From positions 1-32,507 of the IMG/VR virus record IMGVR_UViG_3300014656_000087: a stretch of DNA of 32,507 nucleotides; one strand, 5' to 3'. Positions 12,788-30,665 of this stretch are shown here, in pieces. Position numbers and translations under genes: made by a program. This stretch comes from a virus. Lineage: Duplodnaviria > Caudoviricetes. The notes beneath the pieces are model-generated. The model made no database searches, was not told where the DNA came from, and was given only the letters and a program-made list of their open reading frames with translations. The first letter of the stretch is position 1. Each line of letters starts with the position of its first letter.

Positions 12788-13173
12788 TCTTCCTCAAGTT
12801 TATCGTGATAGATTATCTCAAGCTCTACCTTGCCATCATTTTGAACAGGCTGAGTCACCTTGCCCTCAAGCCTATCCAATAGTTCCTTGATTAACCCAGG
12901 ATTACCCCTCACCGCACCTATTAAAAGAGCTTGAGCTACCATCTGCCGCCAAGTCTTTCCCTTGCCTTTATCTGCAACATCAAGCCACCGCTCATCGGCA
13001 GGTTCGTTGAGCATCTCTTTGATTATGGCCGTGATACTCTGGCCATTAGAGTTGCCCGACTTCCCCTTCTTAAAGCCGTTTTTCCTGCCCTTTTCTAAAT
13101 TATTGAGGCTATTAGGGTGAAGGCCCCTCTTATCTCCGTGATTATTCAATTGCTGGTTGGAATCCTTTTTCAT
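12781..13173 (-). CDS. terS: Terminase small subunit-like protein (DUF5681-type)
   Basis: NSLNNL...FKKGKSGN...ELLDRLEGKVTQ pattern; immediately upstream of terL. Confidence 0.75.
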   Translation of the reverse strand: MKKDSNQQLNNHGDKRGLHPNSLNNLEKGRKNGFKKGKSGNSNGQSITAIIKEMLNEPADERWLDVADKGKGKTWRQMVAQALLIGAVRGNPGLIKELLDRLEGKVTQPVQNDGKVELEIIYHDKLEEDC

Positions 13174-13399
13174 ACTTCTCTTGACTAATTTCCAGTTATT
13201 ATGGCCGGTATCTTTGGTGTGCTTAAGAGGAGCATAAGCCTCTAGTAGGACTTTTTTTTAATCTTCTGACACTCCAAGCAGAGTAATAAAGGCTGCATTT
13301 GTTCTCTCCAAAGACTTCCCTATTGTCCTTGCGGTCACCCCAAAAATCTCGGCAGGTTTCTTATTATCTATTCCCTTCTCAAAAGCAACATGTCTATTC

Positions 13400-13570
13400 T
13401 TTTACCTTCTCTTATATTAACTTATATTACCTTAACTTAAACGCCCGTGCGTTAGTCGGGATTCCATCAGGAACTTATCAGGGATTCATCATGACCAAAT
13501 CATAGACGAATCAGGATAAGATTCTGATTAAATCAGGGGGGAATCAAGGAGAAGGGGGTATAATCAAGGC
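13400..13570. repeat. Iteron-like 11-bp phased repeats plus AT-rich tract (candidate replication origin)
   Basis: ATCAGG-like cores at 13466, 13477, 13488, 13499, 13510, 13521, 13532 and 13543 (exact 11-bp period). Adjacent cttatattaa cttatattac cttaacttaa tract at 13411-13440. No clean ORF. Confidence 0.7.
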
Positions 13571-13588
13571 TAGAATAGCACAGATGTT

Positions 13589-13858
13589 TCATCCGACACC
13601 CCCTGGGATTACAAAGGACTCGTTATCAATCTTGATGTAGTTGGCACTTGGTTTTGGTTGGCTCCAAGTAATAGTCGGTATAGACAAAAGAGGATGGTCT
13701 ATATCGACATCCATTAAGACTATTATATAATCTATATCGACATCAACGGCGACCATTGGATTTTTAGGGGAAGTGGACCTAGTTTTTACCACTTTTTCGG
13801 CCAAAGTGCCGGGATTATCCTGGATTATGAGGGAAGTGCAGGAATTATGTTTAGTCAT
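13589..13858 (-). CDS. Hypothetical protein (89 aa), possibly a remnant
   Basis: ORF coupled by ATGA to the upstream stub; no recognisable motif. Confidence 0.35.
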   Translation of the reverse strand: MTKHNSCTSLIIQDNPGTLAEKVVKTRSTSPKNPMVAVDVDIDYIIVLMDVDIDHPLLSIPTITWSQPKPSANYIKIDNESFVIPGGVG

Positions 13859-14019
13859 TCGGGCAATCTCCCTACAAGAACGGTATGCCAGAGGAGTGGC
13901 TCATTCAAATATACCTCATTACCACATGCCTTGTGATAGGCAGAAAGTTTCATCAGCGCCAAGTTAGGGAACGGCCTTTGCCTTCTCTGCACATCAAGGT
14001 CTAAAAGCAATATCTTCAT
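13855..14019 (-). pseudogene. N-terminal stub of a phage radical SAM protein
   Basis: MKILLLDLDVQRRQRPFPNLALMKLSAYHKACGNEVYLN matches the 'FPNLALMKLSAYHK.GD.V' start of a common phage radical SAM family. It stops after 54 aa with no CxxxCxxC. Confidence 0.7.
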
Positions 14020-14052
14020 GCTACTTTCCACAATCTATGCACTTTCCTCTCA

Positions 14053-14081
14053 AAGCTATCATTATTTCACCATTTTGTCAA
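14053..14081 (-). promoter_or_regulatory. Leftward sigma70-type promoter
   Basis: TTGACA-N17-TAGCTT with TG extended -10 on the minus strand. Confidence 0.6.
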
Positions 14082-14114
14082 GTCAAACAGGTACTTTCCG
14101 GGCAAAAGAAGGTA

Positions 14115-14143
14115 TTGACAAGGATAGTTCGAGGGTATATAGT
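14115..14143 (+). promoter_or_regulatory. Rightward sigma70-type promoter
   Basis: TTGACA-N17-TATAGT, followed by GGAGG RBS and ATG at 14192. Confidence 0.8.
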
Positions 14144-14191
14144 TAGGAGTATCCCAACAGATACAAGGGACACAATAAAAGGAGGTATCCA

Positions 14192-14380
14192 ATGCCAGCA
14201 ATAACAATTAAATGCAAATGCGGCTGTCCGGACCTGAAGCACATAGCCACAACCCACTTTGATACTTGGATACTAGAGTGTCAGGAGTGTCGGTGCCTCG
14301 CCCATTATGACTTGGCTAGTGGCTACATCCAGTGGTATCAGCCACCCCCCATCACTAGGGTCGAGGAGGTGTCAGTATGA
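14192..14380 (+). CDS. Small zinc-ribbon protein
   Basis: CKCGC...CQEC; strong AAGGAGG RBS; ATGA overlap with the next gene. Confidence 0.7.
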   Translation: MPAITIKCKCGCPDLKHIATTHFDTWILECQECRCLAHYDLASGYIQWYQPPPITRVEEVSV

Positions 14381-15003
14381 AAGACCACCCGATAATATTA
14401 TCAACCGATATGGTCAAGGCTATTCTGGAAGATGGGAAAACTCAGACCAGAAGAATATTGGCAACAACAACTAAGCAATGGAAAGGGCAGCAGCCACTTG
14501 ATATATTACCTATGAATACCCCTGATGAATGGGTAGGTCTTATGAGCAGGAACCCAAATAAGGGACTGGTTTTTAAGTGTAGATATGGTCAAGTAGGCGA
14601 TAGGCTCTATTGCCGAGAAGGGTTTGCTTATAGGGACAAACCAGAAGGTGAATCGCTAGTAGTTTATCGGGCAGACCAAGTGTTAGGACACTATCAATGG
14701 CGACCCTCAATCCACATGCCAAGATGGGCTTCACGGATAACCCTTGAGATTACTGAGGTCAGAGTGGAGAGGGTGCAGGAGATAAGTAGAAATGATGCAA
14801 TCAGTGAGGGCGTATTGTTTATGGGTGGCCTTATAGATTCAGAGCCGTGGTGTGCAAGTGTTGACGACCAAGAGCCGATGAAATATCCACAAGCTGCATT
14901 TGGCAGATTATGGGACTCATACAATGCCAAGCGTGGCTATGGGTGGGTGACTAACCCCTGGGTGTGGGTAATATCATTTAAGGTGGTGAAAGATGGCGAC
15001 TAA
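14377..15003 (+). CDS. ASCH-like phage protein
   Basis: PII..MVKAILE.GKTQTRR, CRYGQVGDRLY.RE, WRPSIHMPRWASRITLEITEVRVERVQEIS and NPWVWVISF signature motifs. Confidence 0.85.
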   Translation: MKDHPIILSTDMVKAILEDGKTQTRRILATTTKQWKGQQPLDILPMNTPDEWVGLMSRNPNKGLVFKCRYGQVGDRLYCREGFAYRDKPEGESLVVYRADQVLGHYQWRPSIHMPRWASRITLEITEVRVERVQEISRNDAISEGVLFMGGLIDSEPWCASVDDQEPMKYPQAAFGRLWDSYNAKRGYGWVTNPWVWVISFKVVKDGD

Positions 15004-15157
15004 CGTCTGGCATCTTAGGGGACTGGACCAGGAACTTATCAACCAGGCAAAGGCGTCAGCGCTGACGCGCCGCCCGAAGAGAGTCACTTACGCCGCCTGG
15101 GTGAATGAGGCGATTACCGAGAAACTAAAGACAGAAAGATTGGGGAGTGAGAGCTGA
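14993..15157 (+). CDS. Ribbon-helix-helix-like DNA-binding protein (54 aa)
   Basis: MATNVWHLRGLDQELINQAKASALTRRPKRVTYAAWVNEAITEKL shows a beta-strand/helix/helix pattern; RBS AGGTGG. Confidence 0.6.
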   Translation: MATNVWHLRGLDQELINQAKASALTRRPKRVTYAAWVNEAITEKLKTERLGSES

Positions 15158-15159
15158 TT

Positions 15160-15336
15160 CTAGGGGCATTGGCGGGGTTTCTGGTATGAGCGTACCTTTG
15201 ACCTCGCCTTTGCCTTGACTTGTTTCAGGTCTGCGGCTCTGGGATAGCCGCAGAGAAAGCATGGTTGCATTATCTTTGTTTGCCATTCCTCGTAGTTGGG
15301 TAGCCGGCTAGAACTCCCACACCTGGGACATATCAT
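15160..15336 (-). CDS. Small zinc-finger protein
   Basis: MICPRCG...PCFLCGY; ATGA coupling with the upstream stub. Confidence 0.6.
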   Translation of the reverse strand: MICPRCGSSSRLPNYEEWQTKIMQPCFLCGYPRAADLKQVKAKARSKVRSYQKPRQCP

Positions 15337-15449
15337 ATCCATCTGTTTTTCCCTGCTAAAATCATCCCAAAGCCTGCACGATAGTAGCCCATCGCAGCAC
15401 CGCAGAATAGGTCTAATAGTTTAGGTCCCTTTCGCAAATCATTAGTCAT
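15333..15449 (-). pseudogene. N-terminal stub of a C5 DNA cytosine methyltransferase
   Basis: MTNDLRKGPKLLDLFCGAAMGYYRAGF|GMILAGKNRWI* carries motif I (LLDLFCGA..MGY.RAGF), then is abruptly truncated. Confidence 0.75.
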
Positions 15450-15453
15450 AGTG

Positions 15454-16263
15454 CTATCTCATCATGTGTTCTTTGCAGTCAAGAACTAGCACCTTGCACC
15501 AAGACTCTCGCTCAAGCCTGCTTCTTACCCGCATATTAGCCAGGTCCCTCCAGTGTTCACGGCGATTATCCTCATACTTAAAGAGGTCATCCAGCGGCCG
15601 GTTGGTAGTAACGATAGTGTGCAGGGCATTATCATACCTGGCATCTATTATCGACTGTATCTGCTCGGCTCCCCATTCGCTTCCCTTCTCCGTCCCCAAA
15701 TCATCAAGAACTAACAGGCCAACTCGCTTATAAAGGGTGAGTATGCTTGAGTAGGAATATTGTGCCTCTTTGTCATAGCCCTCTCTTAATTCCTGGAGCA
15801 TAGCAGGGACATTGACATAGGAGGCGGCATGCCCTTGCTCTAGGTGCCTTCGACAGGCAGCAATAGCCAGATGTGACTTGCCCTTATCGGACTCGCCCAG
15901 TAATGTAAGAAAGACGGTATCAGGAGACCCATCAGAGACCTTAATCGCAGAGGCTAAAGCCTCTTCTAATATCTCGTCACCATACGTCAGGAACTTCTCG
16001 AAAGTCTTATGTTCGGTCTTGGTCGGGAGGTGGCAGAGTCGGATAAACTGGGTCTGTCTGCCCTGCTCATCAGAGTCCTTCTTGCAGAGACACCGCATTA
16101 TGTCACTATAAATGACCCGGCCTTCCCTGAACGGGTGAACCCACCCGAAATCACGGCAGACGTTACAATCAAAGACCTCTTCACTTCGTTCTGACGCTGG
16201 CCTTGAGGCGTTCTGTGCGCTGCTGGGGACTATCTGCGGGAGTATGTTCCCTATCTGCTCCAT
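15454..16263 (-). CDS. DnaC/IstB-like AAA+ helicase loader
   Basis: N-terminal CxxC...CxC zinc site, Walker A GESDKGKS, LLVLDDLG Walker B, IDARY...TIVTTN and RSRL arginine finger. Confidence 0.9.
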   Translation of the reverse strand: MEQIGNILPQIVPSSAQNASRPASERSEEVFDCNVCRDFGWVHPFREGRVIYSDIMRCLCKKDSDEQGRQTQFIRLCHLPTKTEHKTFEKFLTYGDEILEEALASAIKVSDGSPDTVFLTLLGESDKGKSHLAIAACRRHLEQGHAASYVNVPAMLQELREGYDKEAQYSYSSILTLYKRVGLLVLDDLGTEKGSEWGAEQIQSIIDARYDNALHTIVTTNRPLDDLFKYEDNRREHWRDLANMRVRSRLERESWCKVLVLDCKEHMMR

Positions 16264-16966
16264 GTCCTTCTCCTTTGGCTGTTCGGCCTTCTCTTACCCA
16301 TCGTTTCAATATACCCTCAATATACTTGAGACTCCCCTTGTTTTGAGTCTTTGCTTCCTTGACCGCATCCTCAAACCAGCCACCAGGTATCTCACGGTCA
16401 TCTCTAATAATCTTCAGTTCATCTACCAGTAAGGGCGCGAGCGCACCAATGTTTTGCTCATAACACTCAATCATAGCAGCCAACTTCGGGTCATTGTCAG
16501 AAGTCTCCGAGCTCTGCCTGCCAGTGTACTTCCTGATATGGTCTTTAGTCTCACCATCTTTGTGACTTATTTTAATAAGAGAGAAGCCATACTTTTCGTA
16601 TAGCTCCCTCAGTGGTAATGGGTGTTCTGGCTTCTCTCTCTTCCAATAGAGCCCTATCTGCTCATCTTCAAAGCCTGGGCACCAGAGATAGGTGTCACCA
16701 TCGGACGAGAATAGATGAATCAGAGGAGTTTCATCATCCTTCTTTGCCTCAGCCATGAGGCTTAACCACTTCTTCACCTTAGCCTCAGTAGCACCTTCTC
16801 TCCGTGGTAGGACCAAAGCCAATACTAACCTGGCATCAGCATAGAAGACACCATTGACATCGACATGCGCTAGAAGCCAGGTATAGAGTAAGGCACCGTC
16901 ACCGGGCAGGTTGTTGACCCTCTTTGAGTTCGATATTTTCTTGTTTATCATCCTGCCTCTTGCCAT
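16181..16966 (-). CDS. Phage replication initiator with C-terminal DnaD-like domain
   Basis: MARGRMINKKIS...LLYTWLLAHVD..G N-domain and YEQNIG...AVKEA...KYIEGILKRW DnaD domain; adjacent to the DnaC-like gene; AAGGAGG RBS. Confidence 0.85.
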   Translation of the reverse strand: MARGRMINKKISNSKRVNNLPGDGALLYTWLLAHVDVNGVFYADARLVLALVLPRREGATEAKVKKWLSLMAEAKKDDETPLIHLFSSDGDTYLWCPGFEDEQIGLYWKREKPEHPLPLRELYEKYGFSLIKISHKDGETKDHIRKYTGRQSSETSDNDPKLAAMIECYEQNIGALAPLLVDELKIIRDDREIPGGWFEDAVKEAKTQNKGSLKYIEGILKRWVREGRTAKGEGHGADREHTPADSPQQRTERLKASVRTK

Positions 16967-17084
16967 CAATTACCTCCTTCAAATTCCCCCTCACCGACAG
17001 CACCGCCAAGCAGCCAGCTAGAACAAGCACCATGACAACCACCGCGATAACTCTCAGGTTCCTCTTCGTTAGTAGTCTATTCAT
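16899..17084 (-). CDS. Small membrane-anchored protein (paralog of 19620..19853)
   Basis: RLLT-KRNLRVIAVVVMVLVLAGCLAVL: basic stretch plus hydrophobic helix; nucleotide similarity to 19762-19785. Confidence 0.5.
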   Translation of the reverse strand: MNRLLTKRNLRVIAVVVMVLVLAGCLAVLSVRGNLKEVIDGKRQDDKQENIELKEGQQPAR

Positions 17085-17243
17085 TTTTATAGTGTCCTTT
17101 GCAACCCTGGTGTTAAATGCCTTTCTCTAAGGGATAAACCCACCTACCAAGATACACGGCTGTTATTACCTCAACTCTGCTACCTATGCCAAAGCTCATC
17201 TACACAACATCCAAACTAAAACTCTATTGTCCAGAATATAGCC

Positions 17244-17399
17244 TCATCTCAGCTTTCTTAGGCAGTGTCTACAAGTCACCTCATCCATTGTCTCTTTGGT
17301 ATTCTTGCCCTCTATCCACAGCAAGCCACAAACCGAATACCTAAGACTTTTGTGTATTGCGTGGATAATCCTAGCCCTGTCATTTCGCTCTATATTCAT
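17244..17399 (-). CDS. Small zinc-finger protein (51 aa)
   Basis: IIH...SVCG...EVTCRHCLRKL pattern; downstream of a repeat A copy. Confidence 0.6.
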   Translation of the reverse strand: MNIERNDRARIIHAIHKSLRYSVCGLLWIEGKNTKETMDEVTCRHCLRKLR

Positions 17400-17430
17400 T
17401 TTCTTTTCCACACCAACCTCCAAACTAAAA

Positions 17431-18291
17431 TCATATCCTTAACTCCATTACTGACTGAGAACATCTTTTGGCTGCGATTTCGCAGTATTTCTCCTCGATT
17501 TCTATTCCGATGCAGTGGCGGTTGAGTTTCTTAGCACAGTAGGCAGTTGTGCCAGAACCAAGGAAGGGGTCTAGGATTAAGTCGCCAGGGTTACTCCAAG
17601 ATATTATATGGTCGCTTGCCAATGCTTCGGGGAATATAGCAGGATGTTCAAATACAAAAGCATCCTTACTAGATTTCATATATCCAACATCGTAAAACCA
17701 GATATTCGCTAAACTAACATCTTCTTTAGCGTCATAATGCTTTCTGGTTAAACTGCCATCTGCATTTCTATTAGTCACTAACTTGTTTTTCACAAAATTG
17801 TATTTGTTGCGATATTTAATCGGGTTAAATGTTTTGGGTTTTCCCTTACAAAAAACAAACATATACTCAAACTGCTGGTTATATCGTATAGTCTCAGGGT
17901 AGCGAATACCGTCCTTCCCATAAATCATAGTATCTAATAACTTAAATCCCACACTGTTAAATAGCAGAGCCTGTCTAAAAGACTCACCAGATTCACCGCC
18001 ATCTGTTACTTTATCTCCCGCTACCCATACCACGACTCCGCCATCACAAATTAACTTTAATAATTCTTGAGCTGTATTTTGGCAGTCAAATACAAACCCA
18101 CCATAATCCCGCAAATCTTCATAAGGTGGTGAAGTAACCACAAGGTCAACACTATTATCGGGTAATTCAGGTAGTATCTCCCTGCAATCAGCGTGTGCTA
18201 TGGCCACCCACTCATCAGAGTAATACCACTTTACCCCAGCGGGCGGCCACGGCTTTGGGTTGGTTTTCTCTGGCGATAATTCGTAGTCCAT
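17431..18291 (-). CDS. DNA N4-cytosine/N6-adenine methyltransferase (beta class)
   Basis: DLVVTSPPY catalytic motif IV precedes HPAIFP and the ILDPFLGSGTT SAM-binding motif I. Confidence 0.92.
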   Translation of the reverse strand: MDYELSPEKTNPKPWPPAGVKWYYSDEWVAIAHADCREILPELPDNSVDLVVTSPPYEDLRDYGGFVFDCQNTAQELLKLICDGGVVVWVAGDKVTDGGESGESFRQALLFNSVGFKLLDTMIYGKDGIRYPETIRYNQQFEYMFVFCKGKPKTFNPIKYRNKYNFVKNKLVTNRNADGSLTRKHYDAKEDVSLANIWFYDVGYMKSSKDAFVFEHPAIFPEALASDHIISWSNPGDLILDPFLGSGTTAYCAKKLNRHCIGIEIEEKYCEIAAKRCSQSVMELRI

Positions 18292-18628
18292 CTAACCTAC
18301 CATCCTCAAGCATGTGGCATCTCCGGCATAGGGAGCGGATATTCTCTGGGCTGTTATTGGTAGTGTTATCATCCTTGTGGTGTCTCTCCGCCTTCGGGCT
18401 ACCGCATCTTTTGCAAGGCTTGAGAGAATAACAGCGTAATGCTCTAGTTCGTCCAGACTTGATAACAATATCCTCGCCCTTGAAAGCGTGATGGTTAGCA
18501 CCAAATCGCTTACGTTTCTGCACATGTCCCTCAGTTTGCTTATAACCCTTCGGTGCTCCTGCTGATAACTTCGGAACATCTTCCCCTCGCTGCCTTGCCC
18601 GATACCGTCTAGTTGCTTCCTTTGACAT
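18215..18628 (-). CDS. HNH homing endonuclease with NUMOD3-like DNA-binding motif
   Basis: GYKQTEGHVQKR and CKRCG...HHKDDNTTNNSPENIRSLCRRCH; GGAGG RBS before MSKEA. Confidence 0.85.
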   Translation of the reverse strand: MSKEATRRYRARQRGEDVPKLSAGAPKGYKQTEGHVQKRKRFGANHHAFKGEDIVIKSGRTRALRCYSLKPCKRCGSPKAERHHKDDNTTNNSPENIRSLCRRCHMLEDGRLDGLRIIARENQPKAVAARWGKVVLL

Positions 18629-18658
18629 GAGCCTACCTCCATACACTTATCTATTGAT

Positions 18659-18687
18659 ATATTATCACAGACAGGTAGACTTGTCAA
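18659..18687 (-). promoter_or_regulatory. Sigma70-type promoter of the HNH cassette
   Basis: TTGACA-N17-TAATAT with TG extension, starting immediately after the methylase stub. Confidence 0.7.
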
Positions 18688-18729
18688 GTGATAGATAGTC
18701 ACCCATTCATCTTGGTAGTAGGATTTCAC
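18688..18729 (-). pseudogene. Orphan 5' stub of the DNA methyltransferase
   Basis: MKSYYQDEWVTIYH; 9 of 13 residues identical to KWYYSDEWVAIAH within the downstream methylase (18193-18231). Confidence 0.7.
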
Positions 18730-18765
18730 CTAGCAAGTCTCCAAACTAAAATCATCCGCACTTTC

Positions 18766-18999
18766 TTACAGGATGTTAACAACTAACTCAATTTTAACCG
18801 CTCTGGGCAATCGCCACCCGTGAGGTTCTCTCCTTAAATCTTCCCTGTCTTTAATATAACCATATCTCTCTTCTATCCATTCCCTACATTCTCTGCGAGT
18901 TCTAAACACAACTGGTAGATAATTTTCATAGAATATATGCCTTTTAACTCCATCTAATCTATTATGGCTATACCATTGACCTGCCCATAATGTCCTCAT
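18766..18999 (-). CDS. Hypothetical phage protein (77 aa)
   Basis: Clean ORF flanked on both sides by repeat A copies. Confidence 0.7.
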   Translation of the reverse strand: MRTLWAGQWYSHNRLDGVKRHIFYENYLPVVFRTRRECREWIEERYGYIKDREDLRREPHGWRLPRAVKIELVVNIL

Positions 19000-19087
19000 C
19001 TAACCAACCTCCAAACTAAAATCATCCCTACTACAAAACCCACCAAAAGTCAAAGCGTTATATCACTCGCTACTTCATTGCCCTAGA

Positions 19088-19273
19088 TTAAAAACTGTCC
19101 CACTCTGGTAGATTGAAAAAGGTTTCTCCTGGCATATCTACAACCTCTATGAGATATTTGTTGCCAACCTCATCATATTCTATCCCACATTGAATTTCAT
19201 CCCATACTGCCATTCTATCTATGTATAGTGGGATACCCCCTCCATCACCTTCGGTTACTTTCCAAACCTTCAT
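19088..19273 (-). CDS. Hypothetical acidic protein (61 aa)
   Basis: AGGAGGG RBS; ends ...FFNLPEWDSF. Confidence 0.65.
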   Translation of the reverse strand: MKVWKVTEGDGGGIPLYIDRMAVWDEIQCGIEYDEVGNKYLIEVVDMPGETFFNLPEWDSF

Positions 19274-19295
19274 ATTCCCCTCCTTTCAGCATAGA

Positions 19296-19517
19296 TTATT
19301 TAATACTTCTTTTCCAAATCAATACTCCCGCTAAAATCATCCCTGCTATGTAGCCTGTCCAGATAAAGGCTATCTCGAAGACTTGCTCCCACCACACATT
19401 AAGCAATACATCTACTTGCCCAACAACCAGATTGGTAGTCAGGATTATCCCGGTAAGCTCCGCCACAGGGTATATTGTTAGCCCTATTACCAGTAAGAAG
19501 AGTAGTTTCTTAATCAT
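19296..19517 (-). CDS. Small membrane protein
   Basis: Two hydrophobic helices; ends GMILAGVLIWKRSIK; ATGA coupling at 19514-19517. Confidence 0.65.
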   Translation of the reverse strand: MIKKLLFLLVIGLTIYPVAELTGIILTTNLVVGQVDVLLNVWWEQVFEIAFIWTGYIAGMILAGVLIWKRSIK

Positions 19518-19645
19518 AATCCCCAATCCATTGATAAGCTAAAGCACAAGATACCTATATGGAAATGGCGACCAAGATACGAAATTGTTAAAGGCAGGAA
19601 CCACATCCATAAGTGGAAATCAATATTGAACTTTACCATACCCAT
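19514..19645 (-). CDS. Small hydrophobic protein (43 aa)
   Basis: MGMVKFNIDFHLWMWFLPLTISYLGRHFHIGILCFSLSMDWGL; AAGGAGG RBS. Confidence 0.55.
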   Translation of the reverse strand: MGMVKFNIDFHLWMWFLPLTISYLGRHFHIGILCFSLSMDWGL

Positions 19646-19853
19646 ATCCTCCTTCTATCTCTGTAGTCGGCAACATATATCCGCCTTGCCCAGAAACCTC
19701 ACCTGCTCGCCACGTTAAAGCAATCAGGCAAGCAAGTAGTAGGGCTGCCATGACAATAATTGCGATAACTCGCAGGTTCCTCTTCATGTTTTTACCTCCG
19801 TAGGGACTGAGTGGGTTCTTAAAGATTAGCTTGGTTAGTAGTCTGTTTTTCAA
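19620..19853 (-). CDS. Small membrane protein carrying the repeat B leader
   Basis: MKNRLLTKLIFKNPLSPYGG-KNMKRNLRVIAIIVMAALLLACLIAL; internal GGAGG RBS before the second Met. Confidence 0.55.
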   Translation of the reverse strand: MKNRLLTKLIFKNPLSPYGGKNMKRNLRVIAIIVMAALLLACLIALTWRAGEVSGQGGYMLPTTEIEGGYGYGKVQY

Positions 19854-19872
19854 TTTACTTGAAACCTCCCTT

Positions 19873-20130
19873 TTACGCTGGCTTAACTATGTCGTGGATA
19901 AACCTGAGTGCCATCGCTCCGAGGTGTATGGCTTCCTTCCGCATCCTCACTATGTCGTATTCGGTCTGCTTCTTGAAGACCTCACGTTTTAGTTCCTCGT
20001 ACTCTTCAAGGATAACAGCCAGACCCTCGTGAGCAGAATGGAAGGGCGGGAACTTCGTTGCCGCGTTATGCGCCTCAGTTGCCATCTCCAAGCCTATCCT
20101 ATTCAGGTCAATCGACTTTGCGTGCATCAT
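19873..20130 (-). CDS. MazG-like nucleotide pyrophosphohydrolase-fold protein
   Basis: FHSAHEGLAVILEEYEELKREVF...RKEAIHLGAMALRF shows the EExxE...E all-alpha NTP-PPase pattern. Confidence 0.65.
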   Translation of the reverse strand: MMHAKSIDLNRIGLEMATEAHNAATKFPPFHSAHEGLAVILEEYEELKREVFKKQTEYDIVRMRKEAIHLGAMALRFIHDIVKPA

Positions 20131-20140
20131 CCCTCCTTAC

Positions 20141-20310
20141 TTAAGTGTCCAAAGCCATCTCAGATATACACTCTAAGAGTTTGCTGATTTCGTCCTCGTG
20201 TGGGAGATCGGACATGTCGACACCACCACTCACATACAGAAGCTCGACCCCTATCACTGTTCCGTCTTCTGCGTGGTCAACAAACCTTGTCTCATCAAGT
20301 TCTTCCGACC
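20141..20310 (-). pseudogene. 5'-truncated DUF2283-like gene
   Basis: ELDETRFVDHAEDGTVIGVELLYVSGGVDMSDLPHEDEISKLL resembles the DUF2283 C-terminal half. Upstream in frame is a TAA inside repeat B, with no start codon. Confidence 0.55.
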
Positions 20311-20360
20311 TCCATAGGGGCTGAGTGGGTTCTTAAAGATTAACCTGGTCAATAGTCTTT

Positions 20361-20594
20361 TCATTTATATCTCCATTTAACCATCTCGTAATCATCTATA
20401 GAATAAGGCTTCGGTGGTGGCTTGAGATTAAACTCTATCCACGCTCCACAAGGACAAGGTGCGTAAAAGTTCCTGACTTCCCAAAAATCAAGAATATCCA
20501 TATTACAAGGCCCGTCTTTACTCTGAAAGCCATCGACTTTAACTCCACACTCAGGACAAGGCATCTCATAACGAATATCATCGAACATTCCCAT
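20361..20594 (-). CDS. Zinc-ribbon hypothetical protein (77 aa)
   Basis: MGMFDDIRYEMPCPECG...FQSKDGPC...CPCG; this internal start has a GGGGG RBS. Confidence 0.7.
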   Translation of the reverse strand: MGMFDDIRYEMPCPECGVKVDGFQSKDGPCNMDILDFWEVRNFYAPCPCGAWIEFNLKPPPKPYSIDDYEMVKWRYK

Positions 20595-20595
20595 A

Positions 20596-20712
20596 TCATT
20601 CCCCCTTCTTACGATACTCAAGATACTTCTCAACACTAGGACGATGAGGACTAGACGCAGGCCATTGACCCCTCCACCACGCCACAAACCTCTCCCATTC
20701 CTTATCGGTCAT
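20596..20712 (-). CDS. Small hypothetical protein (38 aa)
   Basis: MTDKEWERFVAWWRGQWPASSPHRPSVEKYLEYRKKGE; GAGGAG RBS. Confidence 0.55.
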   Translation of the reverse strand: MTDKEWERFVAWWRGQWPASSPHRPSVEKYLEYRKKGE

Positions 20713-20730
20713 AAATCCTCCTCTACTTTA

Positions 20731-20928
20731 CTACTTTGAACACTCCCGTCTCTCTCTCCTCCACGTTAGATAACACGCTTTACACCAATAATGGAGCTTT
20801 TCCTTAGAGCCGTAGAAAAACTCACGGTCTGCTGGCCACCATTCGTCACATTTTGGACAGTGCCTCTCGACCCCACCATCTTCATCTAGCCGTTCTTTCA
20901 CTGTTTTTCTATCCACCATTACACTCAT
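20731..20928 (-). CDS. Zinc-finger protein (endonuclease-associated CxxC...FF...CKxC type)
   Basis: CPKCDEWWPADREFFYG...WCKACY. Confidence 0.65.
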   Translation of the reverse strand: MSVMVDRKTVKERLDEDGGVERHCPKCDEWWPADREFFYGSKEKLHYWCKACYLTWRRERRECSK

Positions 20929-21236
20929 TTTTTCTCCTCCTCTAATATAGATACTATCTCATCAAAGTCAGACGGTCTCCATAGATAGACTTCACACCCC
21001 GGACAGTTCTGCAATGTATAGAGCCACATCCGTTGACTTTCTGTCGGCTGGCCTGTCTCTGATTTGAGTTCTGCGAGAATAAGCCTAGGCGGTTTACAAA
21101 GAGCCACGTCAGGCCAGCCTTTGGGGGAATGAAAGGATTGCCAGGTAAAATAAAACATCCATCCGAATGTCTTGGCCAAGTCTCTTATCTGTTCCCTAAA
21201 TTGCGCCTCGGTTATCTCTAGCCCTGTCTTGGCCAT
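20925..21236 (-). CDS. VRR-NUC family nuclease
   Basis: TEAQF...GWPDV...AELKSETG...Q..W PD-(D/E)xK motif. Confidence 0.85.
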   Translation of the reverse strand: MAKTGLEITEAQFREQIRDLAKTFGWMFYFTWQSFHSPKGWPDVALCKPPRLILAELKSETGQPTESQRMWLYTLQNCPGCEVYLWRPSDFDEIVSILEEEKK

Positions 21237-21499
21237 CTCCCCTCCAACTCAGCCTTCAGCCTCTGATAATCCTCCGGTGTAATGATAATGTTTTCCCTCT
21301 CACTAAATTGGCATTTGTGTGCTTCTAACCACTCCACAAACCACCTCAGCGCATTAATACGGTCAAGGTCCCGTTGGGCTTCCCTTGTCCAAACTAAGAC
21401 ATCAGCCATTTTAGCCTCTAAGTTCTTGATACGGAACCAATCATAGTCCTTTCTTATATCGGCTTCCAATTGCTCATCACTCAATATCGGTAGTTTCAT
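21218..21499 (-). CDS. Hypothetical protein (93 aa)
   Basis: GGAGG RBS; 'AQRDLD' motif; clean ORF in the operon. Confidence 0.65.
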   Translation of the reverse strand: MKLPILSDEQLEADIRKDYDWFRIKNLEAKMADVLVWTREAQRDLDRINALRWFVEWLEAHKCQFSERENIIITPEDYQRLKAELEGRWPRQG

Positions 21500-21854
21500 T
21501 ATTTCTCCTCCCTTCTCCGAAGGGGAGGGGGCAGGCAGCTATCACTGTATGCTGTCATTAAGAGAACCTCACCCCCACCCCTGCCAGCTAGTAAGCACCA
21601 GAGCCTTCCTCCACTTGTTGCTACTCATTTCAACTGCGCCCTTTCGGGTAGCTGGCCCCTTGCTGGGGTTGCTGCGTTTGTCCTCTGGACTCTCTGCCCT
21701 TAACTCCCATTAAGGGTTTCTGCACTAGCCCTTCGCATACCTCCGATTCGCCTATCCTTCCCTCGGTCTAACTAGGGTCCTTAGCCCTAGCTCGGAGTAC
21801 CACACTACCCCCATGATAGTCTCCCAGCAAGCTATTCAGTTGTTAAGTTTCTCT
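21500..21854 (-). ncRNA. Candidate structured non-coding RNA (~350 nt)
   Basis: Large gap in a tightly packed operon, containing many stems: GCTAGGG/CCCTAGT, CCCTTAA/TTAAGGG, CCCC-AGCAA-GGGG, CCC-GAAA-GGG, TACTCCGA/TCGGAGGTA and long-range GCTAGT/ACTAGC. Confidence 0.55.
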
Positions 21855-22025
21855 CTATACCCGGCCTCCGCCGTAATGGGACTCGGTGAGTGCCATATCT
21901 TTGATAGCACACCGATCCTGAGACTCGACCCACCAGGCGCATTCGTGTTTCTGACACAACCAATTACTTACGTCAGTGCCACCCTTTGCAATCGCCATCA
22001 GTGGACATATTACGAATTCACTCAC
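21855..22025 (-). CDS. Small Cys-rich protein (56 aa)
   Basis: MSEFVICPLM...CQKHECAWW...CAIK; GTGA overlap with the upstream stop. Confidence 0.65.
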   Translation of the reverse strand: MSEFVICPLMAIAKGGTDVSNWLCQKHECAWWVESQDRCAIKDMALTESHYGGGRV

Positions 22026-23335
22026 TGTACGCCTCCCTGATTCATTTCCAGTCTGTCCTGGATTTCTTTGACGAATACCTGGTGTTCCTCATTGGTCAAC
22101 CGCCCCAGCACTTTAGCTAGGGTGCCTTCGATATTGATACCTGGGATGTTAACAGTCAGCCAACTAATGGCCGTCTGTGGCTTCCACTTGAGTACCTTGA
22201 GACTATCCTTTACCCAGTCCATATCAATGCCCACCACGCCGTCATCGTCGTCAGGTACCTTATCCGTAACAGTTTCCACGAACTCGTCGGGCGCTTCCAT
22301 TACGGATTCCATTTTGGCGGCTTCCTTCTCGCTGTACCAGTTACCGACATTATTGGGCCGTATGATCCATATCAGGATTTGGTTAGTTTCCTTTACCCGC
22401 AACTTCTGGCCCGGGCGGCCCATTGGCAGCGGGTCCCGCTGACCTATCACGGGTATCTGTTCCTCAACGTAAGCCTGGCCTGCAATTACGTTTCCCTCAA
22501 TGGCAGCTGCCTTGTCAGCGACCTTCACTATCTTGTCCCATGCCTCCTCACCGTCAAGGCCACCGTTGCCCTCAGTAACCGTAGGCAAGTCGGCAAATAT
22601 GGCGTCCTCATCAGGTCGGGGCAAACTCACCTCCTGCACCAGTTCCAGCGGTGGCATAGACGCCTTGCGGTACGCTTCCAGCATCTTATCCTGGCTCCGC
22701 AGATTAAGTACCCGCACCGTCTTTTTCTTCCCATCATCGGGGTTGGTTACCTCTTTGGGCTCAAGTGCCAGTATCAGCGGGACCATGGCAACCCGCCCGT
22801 AAACCTGGCGTACCAGGTCTACGGCACTGTTGATATTGATGATGCTGTTGATGCTCCCTGTGTCTATCTGCCAGACACCGAAGCCGCTGACCTCGGGCAA
22901 TAAGAATTGAAGATTCATTACCTCACCGCAGCCGGTGCGGCCATAGTCCGGGCATTCCCGGCCCTGGCAGGGTATTTCCTGCAGTTCGGCCTCTTTTGTG
23001 TAGCGATTAGCCATTGCCCCGGTAGCCGTATCAACCATGCGTACCGCCGTCTCCCCATCGCCTTTGCATATCAGGCCACGGGTACGGCTATAGCAGCGGT
23101 AATACTGGCTGGCAAACTTCTCGTCATCCTCAACGGGTATGATTACCCGTAGCTCCGTGGGCTTGGGACCATAGGTGGCTATAAGCTCCTCAAGCTGTGG
23201 GTGGTCGGGCGGGTACACGAAATGCTGCGCCGCCCTGGGGTATTCTACGCCGTCCTCCCGTTTTACCTTGTACCCCAGGTGTATCTTACCTATCCGGGGT
23301 AGCCGGCGTTGGTCACTCAATCCCTTTATCGGCAT
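22022..23335 (-). CDS. Gp3-like / recombination directionality factor-like protein (putative recombination/annealing protein)
   Basis: MPIKGLS..RRLPRIGKIHLG, CKGDG, C...CP...C, L.FLLPEV.GFGVWQIDTGS.NSI signature; acidic C-terminal tail. Confidence 0.8.
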   Translation of the reverse strand: MPIKGLSDQRRLPRIGKIHLGYKVKREDGVEYPRAAQHFVYPPDHPQLEELIATYGPKPTELRVIIPVEDDEKFASQYYRCYSRTRGLICKGDGETAVRMVDTATGAMANRYTKEAELQEIPCQGRECPDYGRTGCGEVMNLQFLLPEVSGFGVWQIDTGSINSIININSAVDLVRQVYGRVAMVPLILALEPKEVTNPDDGKKKTVRVLNLRSQDKMLEAYRKASMPPLELVQEVSLPRPDEDAIFADLPTVTEGNGGLDGEEAWDKIVKVADKAAAIEGNVIAGQAYVEEQIPVIGQRDPLPMGRPGQKLRVKETNQILIWIIRPNNVGNWYSEKEAAKMESVMEAPDEFVETVTDKVPDDDDGVVGIDMDWVKDSLKVLKWKPQTAISWLTVNIPGINIEGTLAKVLGRLTNEEHQVFVKEIQDRLEMNQGGVQ

Positions 23336-24371: not shown

Positions 24372-24995
24372 TTAACTCTCCCCTCTTATTAAGATTCTAA
24401 ACCTATCTATCTGCCATTCTTTTTCAGCAGCCCAAGCAGCAGCCCAAGCAGCATCCCAAGCAGCAGCCTCAGCAGCATCCCAAGCAGCAGCCCCAGCAGC
24501 ATCCCAAGCAGCAGCCCAAGCAGCATCCCCAGCAGCATCCCTAGCAGCAGCCTCAGCAGCAGCCCCAGCAGCAGCCTCAGCAGCAGCCCCAGCAGCATCC
24601 CTAGCAGCAGCCCCAGCAGCATCCCTAGAAGCAGCCTCAGCAGCATCCCTAGCAGCAGCCAATTCCTCTTGCGTAACTTCGTTGTTGGCGTATTTACGAG
24701 CAATCACTATCGCCTGTTGGGGTCTTTTGTCTATCGGGTGTTTCTTTACAAACAATGGCAATACCCTCTCGGCACAGTCACACACAAAGATTCTTACTTC
24801 TTTGTCGGCTGGCTCAATAAGAATCCTTAAAGCCCATAGCGCATCATCAAATCCGCAAACCTCAAGTACCTTTTCCATTTCTATAGGAGTACCCTGTCCG
24901 TAATTCCGAACTCCACCGAGAGCCTTTGCCATCTTCTTATAGCTCTCCTTGCAAGCCCCTCCTTTTTTAGCTTCCCTGAATGTTGTGTATAACAT
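24372..24995 (-). CDS. Imm5-like protein with Ala-rich tetrapeptide repeats
   Basis: DALWALR...FVCDCAERVLPLF...DKRPQQAI..AR, followed by AA[WRGE][AD] repeats and EKEWQ. Confidence 0.7.
   Translation of the reverse strand: MLYTTFREAKKGGACKESYKKMAKALGGVRNYGQGTPIEMEKVLEVCGFDDALWALRILIEPADKEVRIFVCDCAERVLPLFVKKHPIDKRPQQAIVIARKYANNEVTQEELAAARDAAEAASRDAAGAAARDAAGAAAEAAAGAAAEAAARDAAGDAAWAAAWDAAGAAAWDAAEAAAWDAAWAAAWAAEKEWQIDRFRILIRGES
24426..24660. repeat. 12-bp coding tandem repeat (~19 units)
   Basis: gcagcccaagca / gcatcccaagca / gcagcctcagca / gcatccctagca variants in tandem. Confidence 0.9.
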
Positions 24996-25937: not shown

Positions 25938-26354
25938 TCACGCAGGCACAGTCTTGCTCCAAAGCAGTTTTGTCTCCTGTGGTTCCCCTGTTTCAAGGTC
26001 AACGCCTCTTTGGAAGCAGGACACCTGGTAAAAACTCAGTGCCATAGTCTTCTTAACAAACTCCATTAAATCTTCCGGCGGGTCCACGTCTTTGCAGGTA
26101 AAGAGATTGATATTCACCCAGTGAAACTCAGGATAGGTATGGACAACGATATTACTCTCTCCCAAGAAGATTATACCGGACAGACCAGAATCCTTGAGGG
26201 GAGGATGGAGGGGATAGGAAGTATGATAGACTTGGGGTTCACCAAAGACAGTCATCTTGGCTTCCCGTGCAGCGTGCAGCAGCCATTGTTTCAGGGATTC
26301 CACATCCTTGAGCAGGTGTTTATTATGAGCTCTACCATCGATGAGGAGCTCCAT
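25938..26354 (-). CDS. speD: S-adenosylmethionine decarboxylase proenzyme (pyruvoyl-dependent, class 1b-like)
   Basis: GLSGIIFLGES-NIVVHTYPE...INLFTCK retains the cleavage E|S, the downstream His and the catalytic Cys. Confidence 0.85.
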   Translation of the reverse strand: MELLIDGRAHNKHLLKDVESLKQWLLHAAREAKMTVFGEPQVYHTSYPLHPPLKDSGLSGIIFLGESNIVVHTYPEFHWVNINLFTCKDVDPPEDLMEFVKKTMALSFYQVSCFQRGVDLETGEPQETKLLWSKTVPA

Positions 26355-26370
26355 GGTTTATCATACTCCA

Positions 26371-26697
26371 TTATGGCATTACCCCTGTAACTGAAAGAAT
26401 ATAAACGATAATATAGACCAAGGCAGTAATAAGCGCAATAGCGCCTCCACCTGTTGCTACCATCTTTTTCTTGTTCATTGGGAGTTTAATCAAACCATAT
26501 TTATCTTCGACCTCTGCGATGATTTCTAATTTACTGATACGCTCATGATTTTTACTCACCTTGTTATTGAGCTTCTCTAGGTGAGTGGTGATGGCTGGTA
26601 GTTTCTCCTCGCTAATGCCGTCTACCTTTAAGGCTATCAGGGCTGTTAGATATTGGGGGTCTTTCTCCAGGTAATCTTCTATCTTTCTTTCGGGCAT
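26371..26697 (-). CDS. Holin-like membrane protein (coiled coil plus C-terminal TM)
   Basis: HLEKLNNKVSKNHERISKLE coiled coil, then one hydrophobic helix; lysis-cassette position. Confidence 0.55.
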   Translation of the reverse strand: MPERKIEDYLEKDPQYLTALIALKVDGISEEKLPAITTHLEKLNNKVSKNHERISKLEIIAEVEDKYGLIKLPMNKKKMVATGGGAIALITALVYIIVYILSVTGVMP

Positions 26698-26967
26698 CTA
26701 ATCTCCTTTCTGATTTGGGACATACTCCTTCCCCCAAAATAGATGCCCTCCGATGTAGCCTACCGAGAACACCCATAGAATCTTCATTACAGTTACCCAG
26801 TCGAACTGATGCCCCAACCACACCCCTAGTGAGATAAGCCCAACAATCCAGAAGAACTCATATGTGTGCCATATATCTCGAAGGATAAATGTCCAGGGTC
26901 GGCCACCTATCCAATACCACAATCCCCACTTGTACGGATTTTTCCAAAACTTCTTCCACCAATTCAT
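26698..26967 (-). CDS. Small membrane protein (putative holin)
   Basis: MNWWKKF start coupled by ATGA; two TM segments; GHLFWG. Confidence 0.6.
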   Translation of the reverse strand: MNWWKKFWKNPYKWGLWYWIGGRPWTFILRDIWHTYEFFWIVGLISLGVWLGHQFDWVTVMKILWVFSVGYIGGHLFWGKEYVPNQKGD

Positions 26968-27089
26968 CTTAGCCTTATTAGCCGGTAAATAAATATAGCC
27001 AGCCCCGATACCGCCATCCCGATACCCAGCCAGCCTATCACTAGAAGGCACCAGATAAACGTAGAGGCCAATTGATTGATTGCTTCCAT
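26964..27089 (-). CDS. Small single-TM protein (41 aa)
   Basis: MEAINQLASTFIWCLLVIGWLGIGMAVSGLAIFIYRLIRLR; AGGAGG RBS. Confidence 0.6.
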   Translation of the reverse strand: MEAINQLASTFIWCLLVIGWLGIGMAVSGLAIFIYRLIRLR

Positions 27090-27102
27090 ATATTATATCC
27101 TC

Positions 27103-27843
27103 CTAGCCAGCGTATACGAGACTAATTGTATAAGTCACTTTCAATTGCCCGGTAGCTGCCACGGCTACTCCAGATGCGAGCTTGTCACGGGCTACCAGTA
27201 TGTACAGTCCCTCACTACCAGCCGCGTAACCACAGAAAACTAAACCAACTTCGGTAACTGTTATAGACCCACCACTGTTATTATTAAGATACCTCACCAA
27301 GTCCACATCATAGGTCTTGGTGCCAGCAGTATAAGTCTCAGCGTGGGCGTCATGTTCACCGTAGGCCAACTGGGTAGCAACGTTGCCATTCACAATCTTC
27401 GTTCCTAGAGCAAAATCCTCAAAGCTCTCAGCACCAGTTCCAGTGCCCACCAGGATACCGTAATCGTCATTGGCAGCTTCGGCTAAGTAACCTCCGTAAG
27501 CAAGGAGCGGAGTATCCATAGTATATAAGTCATCTGTTCCCATATTAGATATACATGAAGGGTAGGAACCATCTCTAACTGTGCCACCAGTATCTTTTAT
27601 ATTAAGATAACCACCACCAAAGGTAGTGGCATCATCCAAGTCCTTACCTGCCAACTGACTGAATAAATGGTTATAGGCGTTTCGTGTCCAGCTATGGCTT
27701 CTCTGCTTTCTCTTGGATAGAACGTTGCCATCCTTGTCCAGCACCTCCAGCGTCAAGAAAGCCTCAAAGACTGGCACTCCCAGTTTCTGACCTATTCTGG
27801 CAAACTCCCGATAATCTTTTTCTGTCTTTAATTCTGGGTTCAT
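27103..27843 (-). CDS. Tail/baseplate-associated structural protein
   Basis: GILVGTG...DFAL...N.SGGSITVTEVGL...L.ARD...L.VTY.I pattern seen in tail fibre N-terminal/baseplate proteins. Confidence 0.65.
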   Translation of the reverse strand: MNPELKTEKDYREFARIGQKLGVPVFEAFLTLEVLDKDGNVLSKRKQRSHSWTRNAYNHLFSQLAGKDLDDATTFGGGYLNIKDTGGTVRDGSYPSCISNMGTDDLYTMDTPLLAYGGYLAEAANDDYGILVGTGTGAESFEDFALGTKIVNGNVATQLAYGEHDAHAETYTAGTKTYDVDLVRYLNNNSGGSITVTEVGLVFCGYAAGSEGLYILVARDKLASGVAVAATGQLKVTYTISLVYAG

Positions 27844-27853
27844 ATCATTCCTC

Positions 27854-29884: not shown

Positions 29885-29891
29885 TTAACTC

Positions 29892-30488
29892 CTACTTTAC
29901 ATCGGGGTAGCGAACACCAAACTTAGATGTAATACCGCCTATCAATCGAGACATTACCTTCTGCTCCCTGCGTTCCCCAGCCGTAATATAACTGCGCCAA
30001 GTGTCAGCACCACCTATATTTATTGACTCTATCCTGTCTAAACTGATGTTCTGAAGCAGGTGGGAAGCCACCAGCTCAACCAGTATCCCCTCCTGCGTCC
30101 GGTCTAAAGTATTGGTAGAACCTGAAACAGTATGGGGAGCCGAGTACCAGATGTAAGCCGTGTCAGACGATGATACCGAGGGGAGATACGTATCCAGAAT
30201 GACACTTCCACCCCTGCGTGAAGCGGTAACATATCTCTTGGGATGCTTATCAATCGGGAACTCCACCTCATCCACATCTAGTAGGTCGGCAATAGAGGCC
30301 AGACTTAGTTCCCTGGCGGTCCCGGCAAAGGAAACAGTAGCCTGGGCTAGTTGAGGCTGGTAGTCGGAGAGTAGTCTAATGTCCAGCTCCATCTGGGCAG
30401 CAACAGTTGCCGTGCCCCAGATGGCCGTTGCCGAGTCATTAAGTGCCGTTGAAATCCTGTTTATTATCTGAGCTTCAGTCCAAGCCAT
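29892..30488 (-). CDS. Head-tail adaptor-like protein
   Basis: I..RI...LND....W....N-terminal pattern of phage adaptors; upstream of the tail genes. Confidence 0.6.
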   Translation of the reverse strand: MAWTEAQIINRISTALNDSATAIWGTATVAAQMELDIRLLSDYQPQLAQATVSFAGTARELSLASIADLLDVDEVEFPIDKHPKRYVTASRRGGSVILDTYLPSVSSSDTAYIWYSAPHTVSGSTNTLDRTQEGILVELVASHLLQNISLDRIESINIGGADTWRSYITAGERREQKVMSRLIGGITSKFGVRYPDVK

Positions 30489-30655: not shown

Positions 30656-30665
30656 CACTCACCCC

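What the first reader, a model, noticed from the sequence alone, without database searches (positions are those of the whole stretch)
15355..19343. Repeat A: micro-peptide-encoding junction element defining a gene-cassette array
Seen: six copies of a GGATGATTTTAG(TTTGGAGG)-type element within 4 kb, and none noticed elsewhere. Four sit between genes and read as micro-ORFs MILVWRLVR*, MILVWRLAR*, MILVWRLVWKRK* and (R)VLVWMLCR*, each ending in an ATGA/GTGA overlap with the next gene. Differences between the 19025 and 18755 copies are mostly synonymous (AGG/AGA, TTG/CTT, AGA/AGG), even at the cost of the GGAGG RBS. One copy marks a truncation breakpoint and one lies in a membrane-protein tail (GMILAG). 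Inference: a portable translational-coupling and recombination adaptor that lets small genes be gained, lost and shuffled, resembling an integron-like array without an integrase. It may be driven by the phage Gp3-like recombination protein. Precedents for the idea are T4 PeSL elements and mycobacteriophage start-associated sequences, but I do not recognise this motif.
Basis: partly seen in the sequence, partly recalled or inferred. Interest (0 to 1): 0.8.

Follow-up and report, generated by a model that had tools for sequence, protein, structure and literature searches.

The report
Membrane-gene tails reused as gene junctions
The repeat is real, but it is the leftover last 8-17 codons of a small phage membrane-protein gene, copied several times between unrelated genes, where it likely supplies a ribosome-binding site for the next gene and likely a short homology for gene swaps; it is not an integron-like site or a purpose-built micro-peptide.

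Summary
Observation confirmed: five exact ATGATTTTAG plus one decayed copy, all on the minus strand within 4 kb; 0 of 500 shuffles match this. The micro-ORFs are the C-terminal helix tail of the small hydrophobic protein family encoded at 19296-19517 (327 clusters at 50% identity). Relatives end in MMLVWRLVWKRKT, MILVWRLVCR, MGLVWRLAR and MILVWRLAWQKQN, and homology runs upstream of the 19025 copy. That parentage explains the peptide-level conservation. In four related contigs the element sits between other genes; two share the downstream gene and diverge exactly at its ATG, so it does mark mosaic boundaries. It is one of several gene scars here: stubs of both ends of an MT-A70 methylase flank an inserted gene, as in two other phage sequences, and two further methylase starts are cut short. 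A 16-nt core is invariant and usually begins at a stop/start overlap. No integrase, palindrome or promoter was found, and nothing links the element to Gp3-like. Best reading: scars kept as stop-RBS-start linkers that likely act as weak recombination boundary sequences. The scan held no look-alike DNA.

The parts
19296..19517 (-). Intact parent gene: 73-aa hydrophobic protein of an unnamed family (no Pfam or PHROG match); its last codons from the ATG at 19340 are the long form of the repeat
   Evidence: 327 clusters at E<=0.001; hydropathy
19279..19311 (-). 5' stub of an MT-A70 methylase gene (19311-19286) overlapping the membrane-gene end, followed by an AAGGAGG ribosome-binding site
   Evidence: 24 of 26 nt identical to the start of intact MT-A70 gene L217; Pfam PF05063 on 4 of 4 intact genes tested
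19088..19273 (-). 61-aa unknown gene lying between the two MT-A70 stubs
19058..19083 (-). 3' stub of an MT-A70 methylase gene
   Evidence: aligns to the 3' end of 4 of 4 intact MT-A70 genes tested
18996..19049 (-). Long 3' stub of a second membrane-gene allele: open frame LLVGFVVG-MILVWRLVR*, ATG at 19025, GGAGG 8 nt before the next start
   Evidence: rank 2 of 33260 six-frame positions for a family-tail profile built without the window's protein
18766..18999 (-). 77-aa unknown gene; its homolog in L240 (61% identity) has no repeat upstream
18726..18755 (-). Short stub MILVWRLAR*, GTGA overlap with a methylase start
   Evidence: the tail WRLAR* also ends P0002 and P0018
18190..18729 (-). N6/N4-methylase-like 5' stub (18729-18688), then a promoter-like site (18687-18659) and an HNH gene (18215-18628)
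   Evidence: a joint 18189-18688 without the HNH cassette in contigs of X1 and X3, with short sides of 26-27 nt
17431..18291 (-). N6/N4 DNA methylase; its TGA is the TGA within the ATGA of the next copy
   Evidence: PF01555 E 1e-44
17396..17434 (-). Short stub MILVWRLVWKRK*, ATGA overlaps at both ends
   Evidence: P0005 ends MMLVWRLVWKRKT
17244..17399 (-). 51-aa unknown gene
17224..17247 (-). Micro-ORF MRLYSGQ*, resembling the start of the 77-aa gene (a likely 5' stub)
   Evidence: compared by eye only
17196..17225 (-). Decayed copy without ATG and with GGATG in place of GGAGG; stop overlaps a 28-codon ORF starting at 17199
15333..15449 (-). 38-codon ORF: 5' stub of a phrog_363 methyltransferase joined in frame to a long-form copy (GMILAG, ATG at 15365)
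   Evidence: tblastn to the 238-aa ORF of L236, E 9e-6
22022..23335 (-). Gp3-like protein (PF18897); context only, no link to the repeat shown

Best explanation
Repeat A is the 3' end of a common small membrane-protein gene of groundwater phages, left behind in several allelic versions between unrelated genes, where it is likely kept because it carries a stop codon, a GGAGG ribosome-binding site and a correctly spaced start, and where it likely serves as a short boundary homology for gene exchange. Shown: the origin from the gene tail; the changing neighbours; one breakpoint at the ATG; the fixed spacing from GGAGG to the next start; and the same scar pattern for methylase genes. Inferred: (1) replacement of the gene body leaves the tail because the next gene needs its ribosome-binding site; (2) new upstream genes are joined at the ATGA microhomology, which gives an intact stop/start overlap and turns the internal Met into the start of a relay micro-ORF that couples translation; (3) once present in two phages, the 16-27-nt identity allows occasional crossovers that combine one phage's upstream gene with another's tail and downstream gene. 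The peptide itself likely has no function.
For: Family tails match the micro-ORFs: P0005 MMLVWRLVWKRKT, P0011 MILVWRLVCR, P0002/P0018 MGLVWRLAR, P0010 MSLAWRLV. P0040, found later, ends MILVWRLAWQKQN and matches the L052/L074 micro-ORF in 12 of its first 12 residues. An 8-column profile of 24 relatives, without the window's protein, ranks 18755, 19025, 17434 and 19340 first to fourth and 15365 sixth of 44317 six-frame positions; a 15-column profile ranks the extended 19025 stub second of 33260. Synonymous/non-synonymous codon differences among 6 distinct copies are 14/18 in the parent frame and 2/31 and 4/32 in the other frames (pairs not independent). A start codon lies 5 or 8 nt after the SD position in 8 of 9 short copies; the upstream gene's stop overlaps the ATG in 4 of 8 ATG-bearing copies and lies within 13 nt in 2 more. 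L052 and L074 are identical for 63 of 63 nt from the ATG and unrelated just before it. L207 holds an intact gene, an HNH gene, then a stub. MT-A70 5' and 3' stubs flank other genes in the window, in L208/L218 and in L232/L235 (3 of 28 loci matching the MT-A70 start pattern are such stubs, 2 distinct sequences).
Against: No full-length gene with the short tail was obtained as DNA; its match to the stubs rests on protein sequences. The first 16 nt are invariant in 7 of 7 ATG-bearing short copies compared, although MILVW occurs in only 4 of 157 family tails; independent passive truncation does not predict this. The micro-ORF stop overlaps the next start in only 4 of 8 ATG-bearing copies, and L207b has no downstream start. 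Two window copies have lost GGAGG (18755, 17225). Perfect identity between window copies is 17-23 nt, at or below the minimum pairing lengths quoted for Red-beta (23-27) and RecA (31-34) in PMC3945230. No joint between two Repeat A copies appears among those listed. Only 4 related contigs were found, and L052 and L074 are short and share their downstream gene.
Confidence: 0.68

Rival explanations
1. Passive scars only: one ancestral truncation made a 16-nt-core stub, which was carried along with neighbouring genes by ordinary illegitimate recombination; it keeps a ribosome-binding role at most and is not a preferred crossover site.
For: Identity is short relative to quoted pairing minima (PMC3945230 passage). 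No joints between copies were listed. The HNH insertion boundary and the MT-A70 stubs show rearrangements away from Repeat A. The 77-aa gene exists without the element.
Against: One invariant core is combined with at least five different family-type tails and with different upstream genes in nearly every copy. The left edge of homology lies within 0-3 nt of the ATG in all stubs except 19025. L052 and L074 diverge exactly there.
Confidence: 0.17
2. The 16-nt core is now under selection as a nucleotide signal, such as a U-rich translation enhancer or a binding site for a phage regulator as proposed for mycobacteriophage SAS motifs; the coding origin is incidental.
For: Positions 1-16 are invariant, including three free third-codon positions, in 7 of 7 copies compared. 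All copies share one orientation and a fixed distance to the start.
Against: Copies are confined to 4 kb and absent before most genes of the operon, which have ordinary purine-rich SD sites. Recent common origin explains the invariance equally well. One copy has no downstream gene.
Confidence: 0.1
3. One reading: a dedicated micro-peptide adaptor acting as an att-like site of an integrase-free cassette array driven by Gp3-like.
For: Differences are biased to synonymous in the micro-ORF frame; neighbours vary.
Against: The peptides are family tails and vary from 8 to 17 codons. No common fold. No PF00589 or PF07508 match in the contig, which is 80% complete. 0 of 3 Gp3-like records hold the core at up to 2 mismatches; G001 holds it without Gp3-like, though it is only 43% complete.
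Confidence: 0.05

Closest known systems
Short conserved boundary sequences at phage mosaic junctions (as summarised in passages of PMC3029335; the original papers were not read)
   Same: Short shared sequence at gene boundaries, with different genes on either side in related phages; general recombination is the proposed driver.
   Different: Here the boundary sequence has an identifiable parent (a membrane-gene tail), is repeated six times within one genome and reads as a micro-ORF; crossover at it is inferred, not shown.
PeSL elements of T4-type phages (PMC2839356, passages read)
   Same: Repeated intergenic units that run from an upstream stop to an SD and start, flank small unknown genes and are proposed to shuffle them.
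   Different: PeSLs carry a sigma70-like promoter and a stem-loop, and mini-circles were shown. Repeat A has neither feature consistently, is 30-50 nt long and derives from coding sequence.
Start-associated sequences of Cluster K mycobacteriophages (PMC3203893, passages read)
   Same: Non-palindromic, single-orientation repeat containing an SD-like part a few bases before start codons of non-structural genes.
   Different: SAS are spread over half of the genome and have no reported coding parent in the passages read; no inverted-repeat extension is seen here.
Termination-reinitiation at ATGA/TGATG overlaps (PMC6728339, abstract read)
   Same: Overlap type and intragenic SD; 13 of 14 tested gene pairs were coupled in that study.
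   Different: Here the upstream partner is an 8-17-codon remnant; coupling was not tested.
Integron cassette arrays (definition recalled)
   Same: Small variable genes separated by repeats in one orientation.
   Different: No integrase and no palindromic attC-like site; the repeats are coding remnants.

Membership tests
3' remnant of the P0001 membrane-protein family | Micro-ORFs match the family's C-terminal residues in frame | tested here: met
3' remnant of the P0001 membrane-protein family | Homology extends upstream of the ATG in at least one copy | tested here: met
   19025 copy; other copies share only 0-3 nt
3' remnant of the P0001 membrane-protein family | Nucleotide match to a full-length short-tail allele | not testable with these tools
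Phage boundary sequences | Same short sequence at junctions of different genes in related phages | tested here: met
   L052 versus L074, L076 (two copies), L207
Phage boundary sequences | Crossovers actually occur within the sequence | tested here: inconclusive
   One boundary at the ATG; no joint between copies among those listed, and contigs drop rare forms
PeSL | Sigma70-like promoter in each element | tested here: not met
   Only 9/12 consensus sites near 19340, 18755 and 15365; none at 19025, 17434 or 17225
PeSL | Stem-loop in each element | tested here: not met
   Folds of 11 copies differ and are weak (-2.3 to -11.1 kcal/mol; no shuffle control); no terminator-like site at a copy
PeSL | Mini-circles between elements | not testable with these tools
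   Only assembled contigs were available
SAS | Oriented, non-palindromic repeat just before start codons | tested here: met
SAS | Dispersed before many non-structural genes | tested here: not met
   All copies lie in 15365-19340
Integron array | Tyrosine integrase nearby | tested here: not met
   PF00589: 0 matches in G000 (80% complete); control rang in 14 of 14 genomes
Integron array | Imperfect-palindrome attC sites | tested here: not met
   No shared hairpin; no Rfam match below E 0.7 in 13000-22000

The most novel reading that the evidence does not exclude
In this group of groundwater phages, ends of once-common genes (the membrane-gene tail and both ends of the MT-A70 methylase) have become a shared kit of 25-50-nt stop-RBS-start linkers. 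The 16-nt core is now an autonomous, selected crossover and translation-relay unit that lets any small gene plug into the operon in a coupled frame: a promoterless, coding-derived counterpart of PeSL elements.
Probability: 0.25. Interest if true: 0.68.

Novelty: new variant of a known kind. Interest (0 to 1): 0.42.

Why it matters
It shows where a phage boundary repeat can come from: the tail of an ordinary gene that already carried the next gene's ribosome-binding site. If such scars are preferred crossover sites, they offer a traceable route by which accessory regions gain genes without breaking translation, which bears on the open question of how many mosaic junctions are homology-guided. 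It also warns that conserved micro-ORFs with a synonymous bias can be inherited remnants, not functional peptides.

Tried and rejected
Exact-pattern scans mostly returned chance hits. IMG/VR: 5 hits and 40 hits, none with a BLASTN match to the window. GTDB: 37 hits, none phage-related by BLASTN apart from one 28-nt hit at E 0.005 that I treated as chance. JGI metagenomes: 118 stretches from 53 of 64 parts; 2 are the window's own contig; of 117 other matches only 4, in 3 loci, extend to the 22-mer. The other loci were not annotated one by one; L081 (E 0.005) was not followed. The six Gp3-like loci shared only that gene with the window, and their flanks covered little of the downstream region. 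The very high contig depth at 19260-19319 first looked like a second, abundant mobile element; it is explained at least in part by MT-A70 gene starts. The frame reading DDFSLEVG* was rejected (4 synonymous, 32 non-synonymous). Rfam gave nothing. The membrane protein has no Pfam, PHROG or GenBank-phage match; Atlas hits were all under 0.9. A search for longer fused forms found none, which is weak evidence. The MT-A70 family search rang nowhere, controls included, so it is uninformative. RNA run X5 holds only short related pieces, so expression is not shown. The structure prediction did not finish. Literature searches found no paper on this motif, on gene-stub linkers of this kind, or on Gp3-like as an annealase; only open-licence papers are covered. 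The host was not identified.
Full report
Setting. The window is a whole 32.5-kb virus contig, estimated 80% complete. On the minus strand a Gp3-like gene (22022-23335) is followed by many small genes, an N6/N4 methylase, a replication initiator, a DnaC-like loader and, further on, a terminase. The repeat lies in this small-gene stretch, which resembles the nin-type accessory regions of temperate phages (resemblance recalled). Runs that hold the DNA are groundwater metagenomes. The host was not identified.

Observation. ATGATTTTAG occurs five times in the window, all on the minus strand between 15365 and 19340, and a 17-mer occurs three times; 0 of 500 shuffles of the region reach either count. 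A sixth, decayed copy at 17225 lacks the ATG. The four micro-ORFs and their ATGA/GTGA overlaps are as reported. Separately assembled public contigs span the copies without differences (X1 may be the source sample, X2 is another study).

Origin. The gene at 19296-19517 encodes a 73-aa hydrophobic protein. Its family has 25 members in the word search and 327 clusters at 50% identity in the full search, with no Pfam or PHROG name. Family members end in the micro-ORF sequences: P0005 MMLVWRLVWKRKT, P0011 MILVWRLVCR, P0002 and P0018 MGLVWRLAR, P0010 MSLAWRLV. P0040, found afterwards, ends MILVWRLAWQKQN, which matches the micro-ORF of L052/L074 over 12 residues. A tail profile built without the window's protein ranks the three ATG-bearing short copies and the gene itself first to fourth of 44317 positions, and the 15365 copy sixth. 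A longer profile picks up LVGFVVG upstream of the 19025 copy (rank 2 of 33260). So the copy 'in a membrane-protein tail' is the parent, and the others are 3' stubs of different alleles. The synonymous bias (14/18 in the parent frame against 2/31 and 4/32) is what tails inherited from diverged functional genes would show; it does not require a functional peptide.

Neighbours in relatives. Four related contigs carry short copies. L076 has two: after a 72-aa gene and before a 78-aa gene; and after an HNH gene and before an MT-A70 stub. L207 has an intact membrane gene, an HNH gene, then a stub with nothing downstream. L052 and L074 share 63 of 63 nt from the ATG into a VRR-NUC gene but have different genes upstream. 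The homolog of the window's 77-aa gene in L240 has no stub. Most pattern hits were chance; the counts are under Tried and rejected.

Anatomy. A start codon lies 5 or 8 nt behind the SD position in 8 of 9 short copies. The upstream gene's stop overlaps the ATG in 4 of 8 ATG-bearing copies and lies within 13 nt in two more. The micro-ORF stop overlaps the next start in 4 of 8, plus the decayed copy. The first 16 nt are invariant in 7 of 7 copies compared, while MILVW is found in only 4 of 157 family tails; homology to the parent ends 0-3 nt upstream of the ATG except at 19025. One fixed core with several allele-type tails is the pattern expected if crossovers happen in the core, or if one stub spread and exchanged tails; this is inference. 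Perfect identity between window copies is 17-23 nt, marginal against the pairing minima of 23-27 (Red-beta) and 31-34 (RecA) quoted in PMC3945230 (passages read), so such events would be rare. No joint between two copies is listed (full list for 18690-19560) or among the 15 of 30 shown; contigs drop rare forms.

Not a lone element. The sequence right behind the membrane gene matches the start of intact MT-A70 methylase genes (24 of 26 nt), and the sequence before the 19025 stub matches their end; a 61-aa gene sits between the two. Of 28 IMG/VR loci with the MT-A70 start pattern, 24 are full length, one is broken at 40 codons, and three (two distinct sequences) are micro-ORF stubs ending in ATGA, with other genes and then a 3' stub behind them. 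L076 joins the MT-A70 3' stub directly to one copy and the 5' stub directly behind the other. The ORF at 15449 is the start of a phrog_363 methyltransferase cut off at the 15365 copy, and a methylase start at 18729 is cut off by an HNH cassette that is absent in some contigs. The region is a patchwork of gene scars, and rearrangement boundaries also fall outside Repeat A.

Mechanism. Most likely, replacement of the membrane-gene body leaves its tail because the TGG-AGG codons are the next gene's ribosome-binding site (inferred). Joining at the ATGA microhomology gives the incoming gene a stop and makes the internal Met the start of a relay micro-ORF (inferred; coupling at such overlaps is common according to the abstract of PMC6728339). 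The shared core then acts as a weak boundary homology (inferred). I put this at 0.68, passive scars at 0.17, a nucleotide-level signal at 0.10 and the dedicated micro-peptide/att model at 0.05.

Comparison. It works like the boundary sequences described in passages of PMC3029335 and like PeSLs (PMC2839356, passages), but it fails the PeSL promoter and stem-loop tests. It shares orientation and start spacing with SAS (PMC3203893, passages) but is not dispersed. It is not an integron: no PF00589 or PF07508 match in the contig and no palindrome. Gp3-like shows no association: 0 of 3 carrier records hold the core, and one search found no paper tying the family to annealing. Eight literature searches found no description of this motif; supplements were not consulted. 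The scan's earlier notes held no look-alike DNA.

Verdict. A real feature whose origin is now explained; its function is inferred. New variant of a known kind; interest 0.42.

Noticed in passing
window 19058-19311; L208/L218; L232/L235; L076: MT-A70 methylase 5' and 3' stubs flank unrelated inserted genes in several phages; the 5' stub forms its own micro-ORF with an ATGA overlap in L208 and L232. The 19269-19311 segment has about 100 times the phage's summed contig depth in run X1, and several contigs include the ribosome-binding part.
   Followed up: partly
window 20254-20364, 19620-19853, 16899-17084; L074 948-1013: A second repeat family of duplicated gene starts (54 nt at 87% and 38 nt at 87%). 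Family member P0008 begins with a similar peptide, so these may be 5' stubs linked to the same membrane family.
   Followed up: no
window 18190-18729: HNH gene with its own promoter-like site inserted after a 14-codon methylase start and followed by a second, complete methylase; a joint without the cassette exists in contigs of two runs.
   Followed up: partly
L074 147-488 and L052 622-846: An unrelated exported-type protein and a membrane-family member share the same C-terminal LAKEAGRVP*, suggesting tail grafting at this locus.
   Followed up: no
L052 898 (-): A further GGATGATTTTAGC near the end of a 117-aa ORF just before the membrane gene; possibly another long-form stub.
   Followed up: no
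window 13855-14016 (-): Short ORF matching only the first 37 positions of a radical SAM family (phrog_9298): another truncated gene start.
   Followed up: no
window 947-8005 (-): 2352-aa protein with a weak ART-PolyVal hit below the cut-off (E 8e-5); may be a polyvalent protein.
   Followed up: no
window 24377-24708: 12-nt tandem repeat encoding Ala-rich repeats in an Imm5-like protein (phrog_18326); a homolog lies upstream of the element in L052.
   Followed up: no
window 14192-15157 (+): A three-gene block on the opposite strand (including phrog_874) with a strong promoter-like site at 14115-14143, inside an otherwise minus-strand genome.
   Followed up: no
window 25938-32389 (-): S-adenosylmethionine decarboxylase, a B12-binding radical SAM protein and a methyltransferase are encoded near structural-looking genes.
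   Followed up: no
window 19296-19517: The parent protein family (YAPxELTR and ExxFIWxxY motifs, 327 clusters) is widespread and matched no Pfam or PHROG family.
   Followed up: partly
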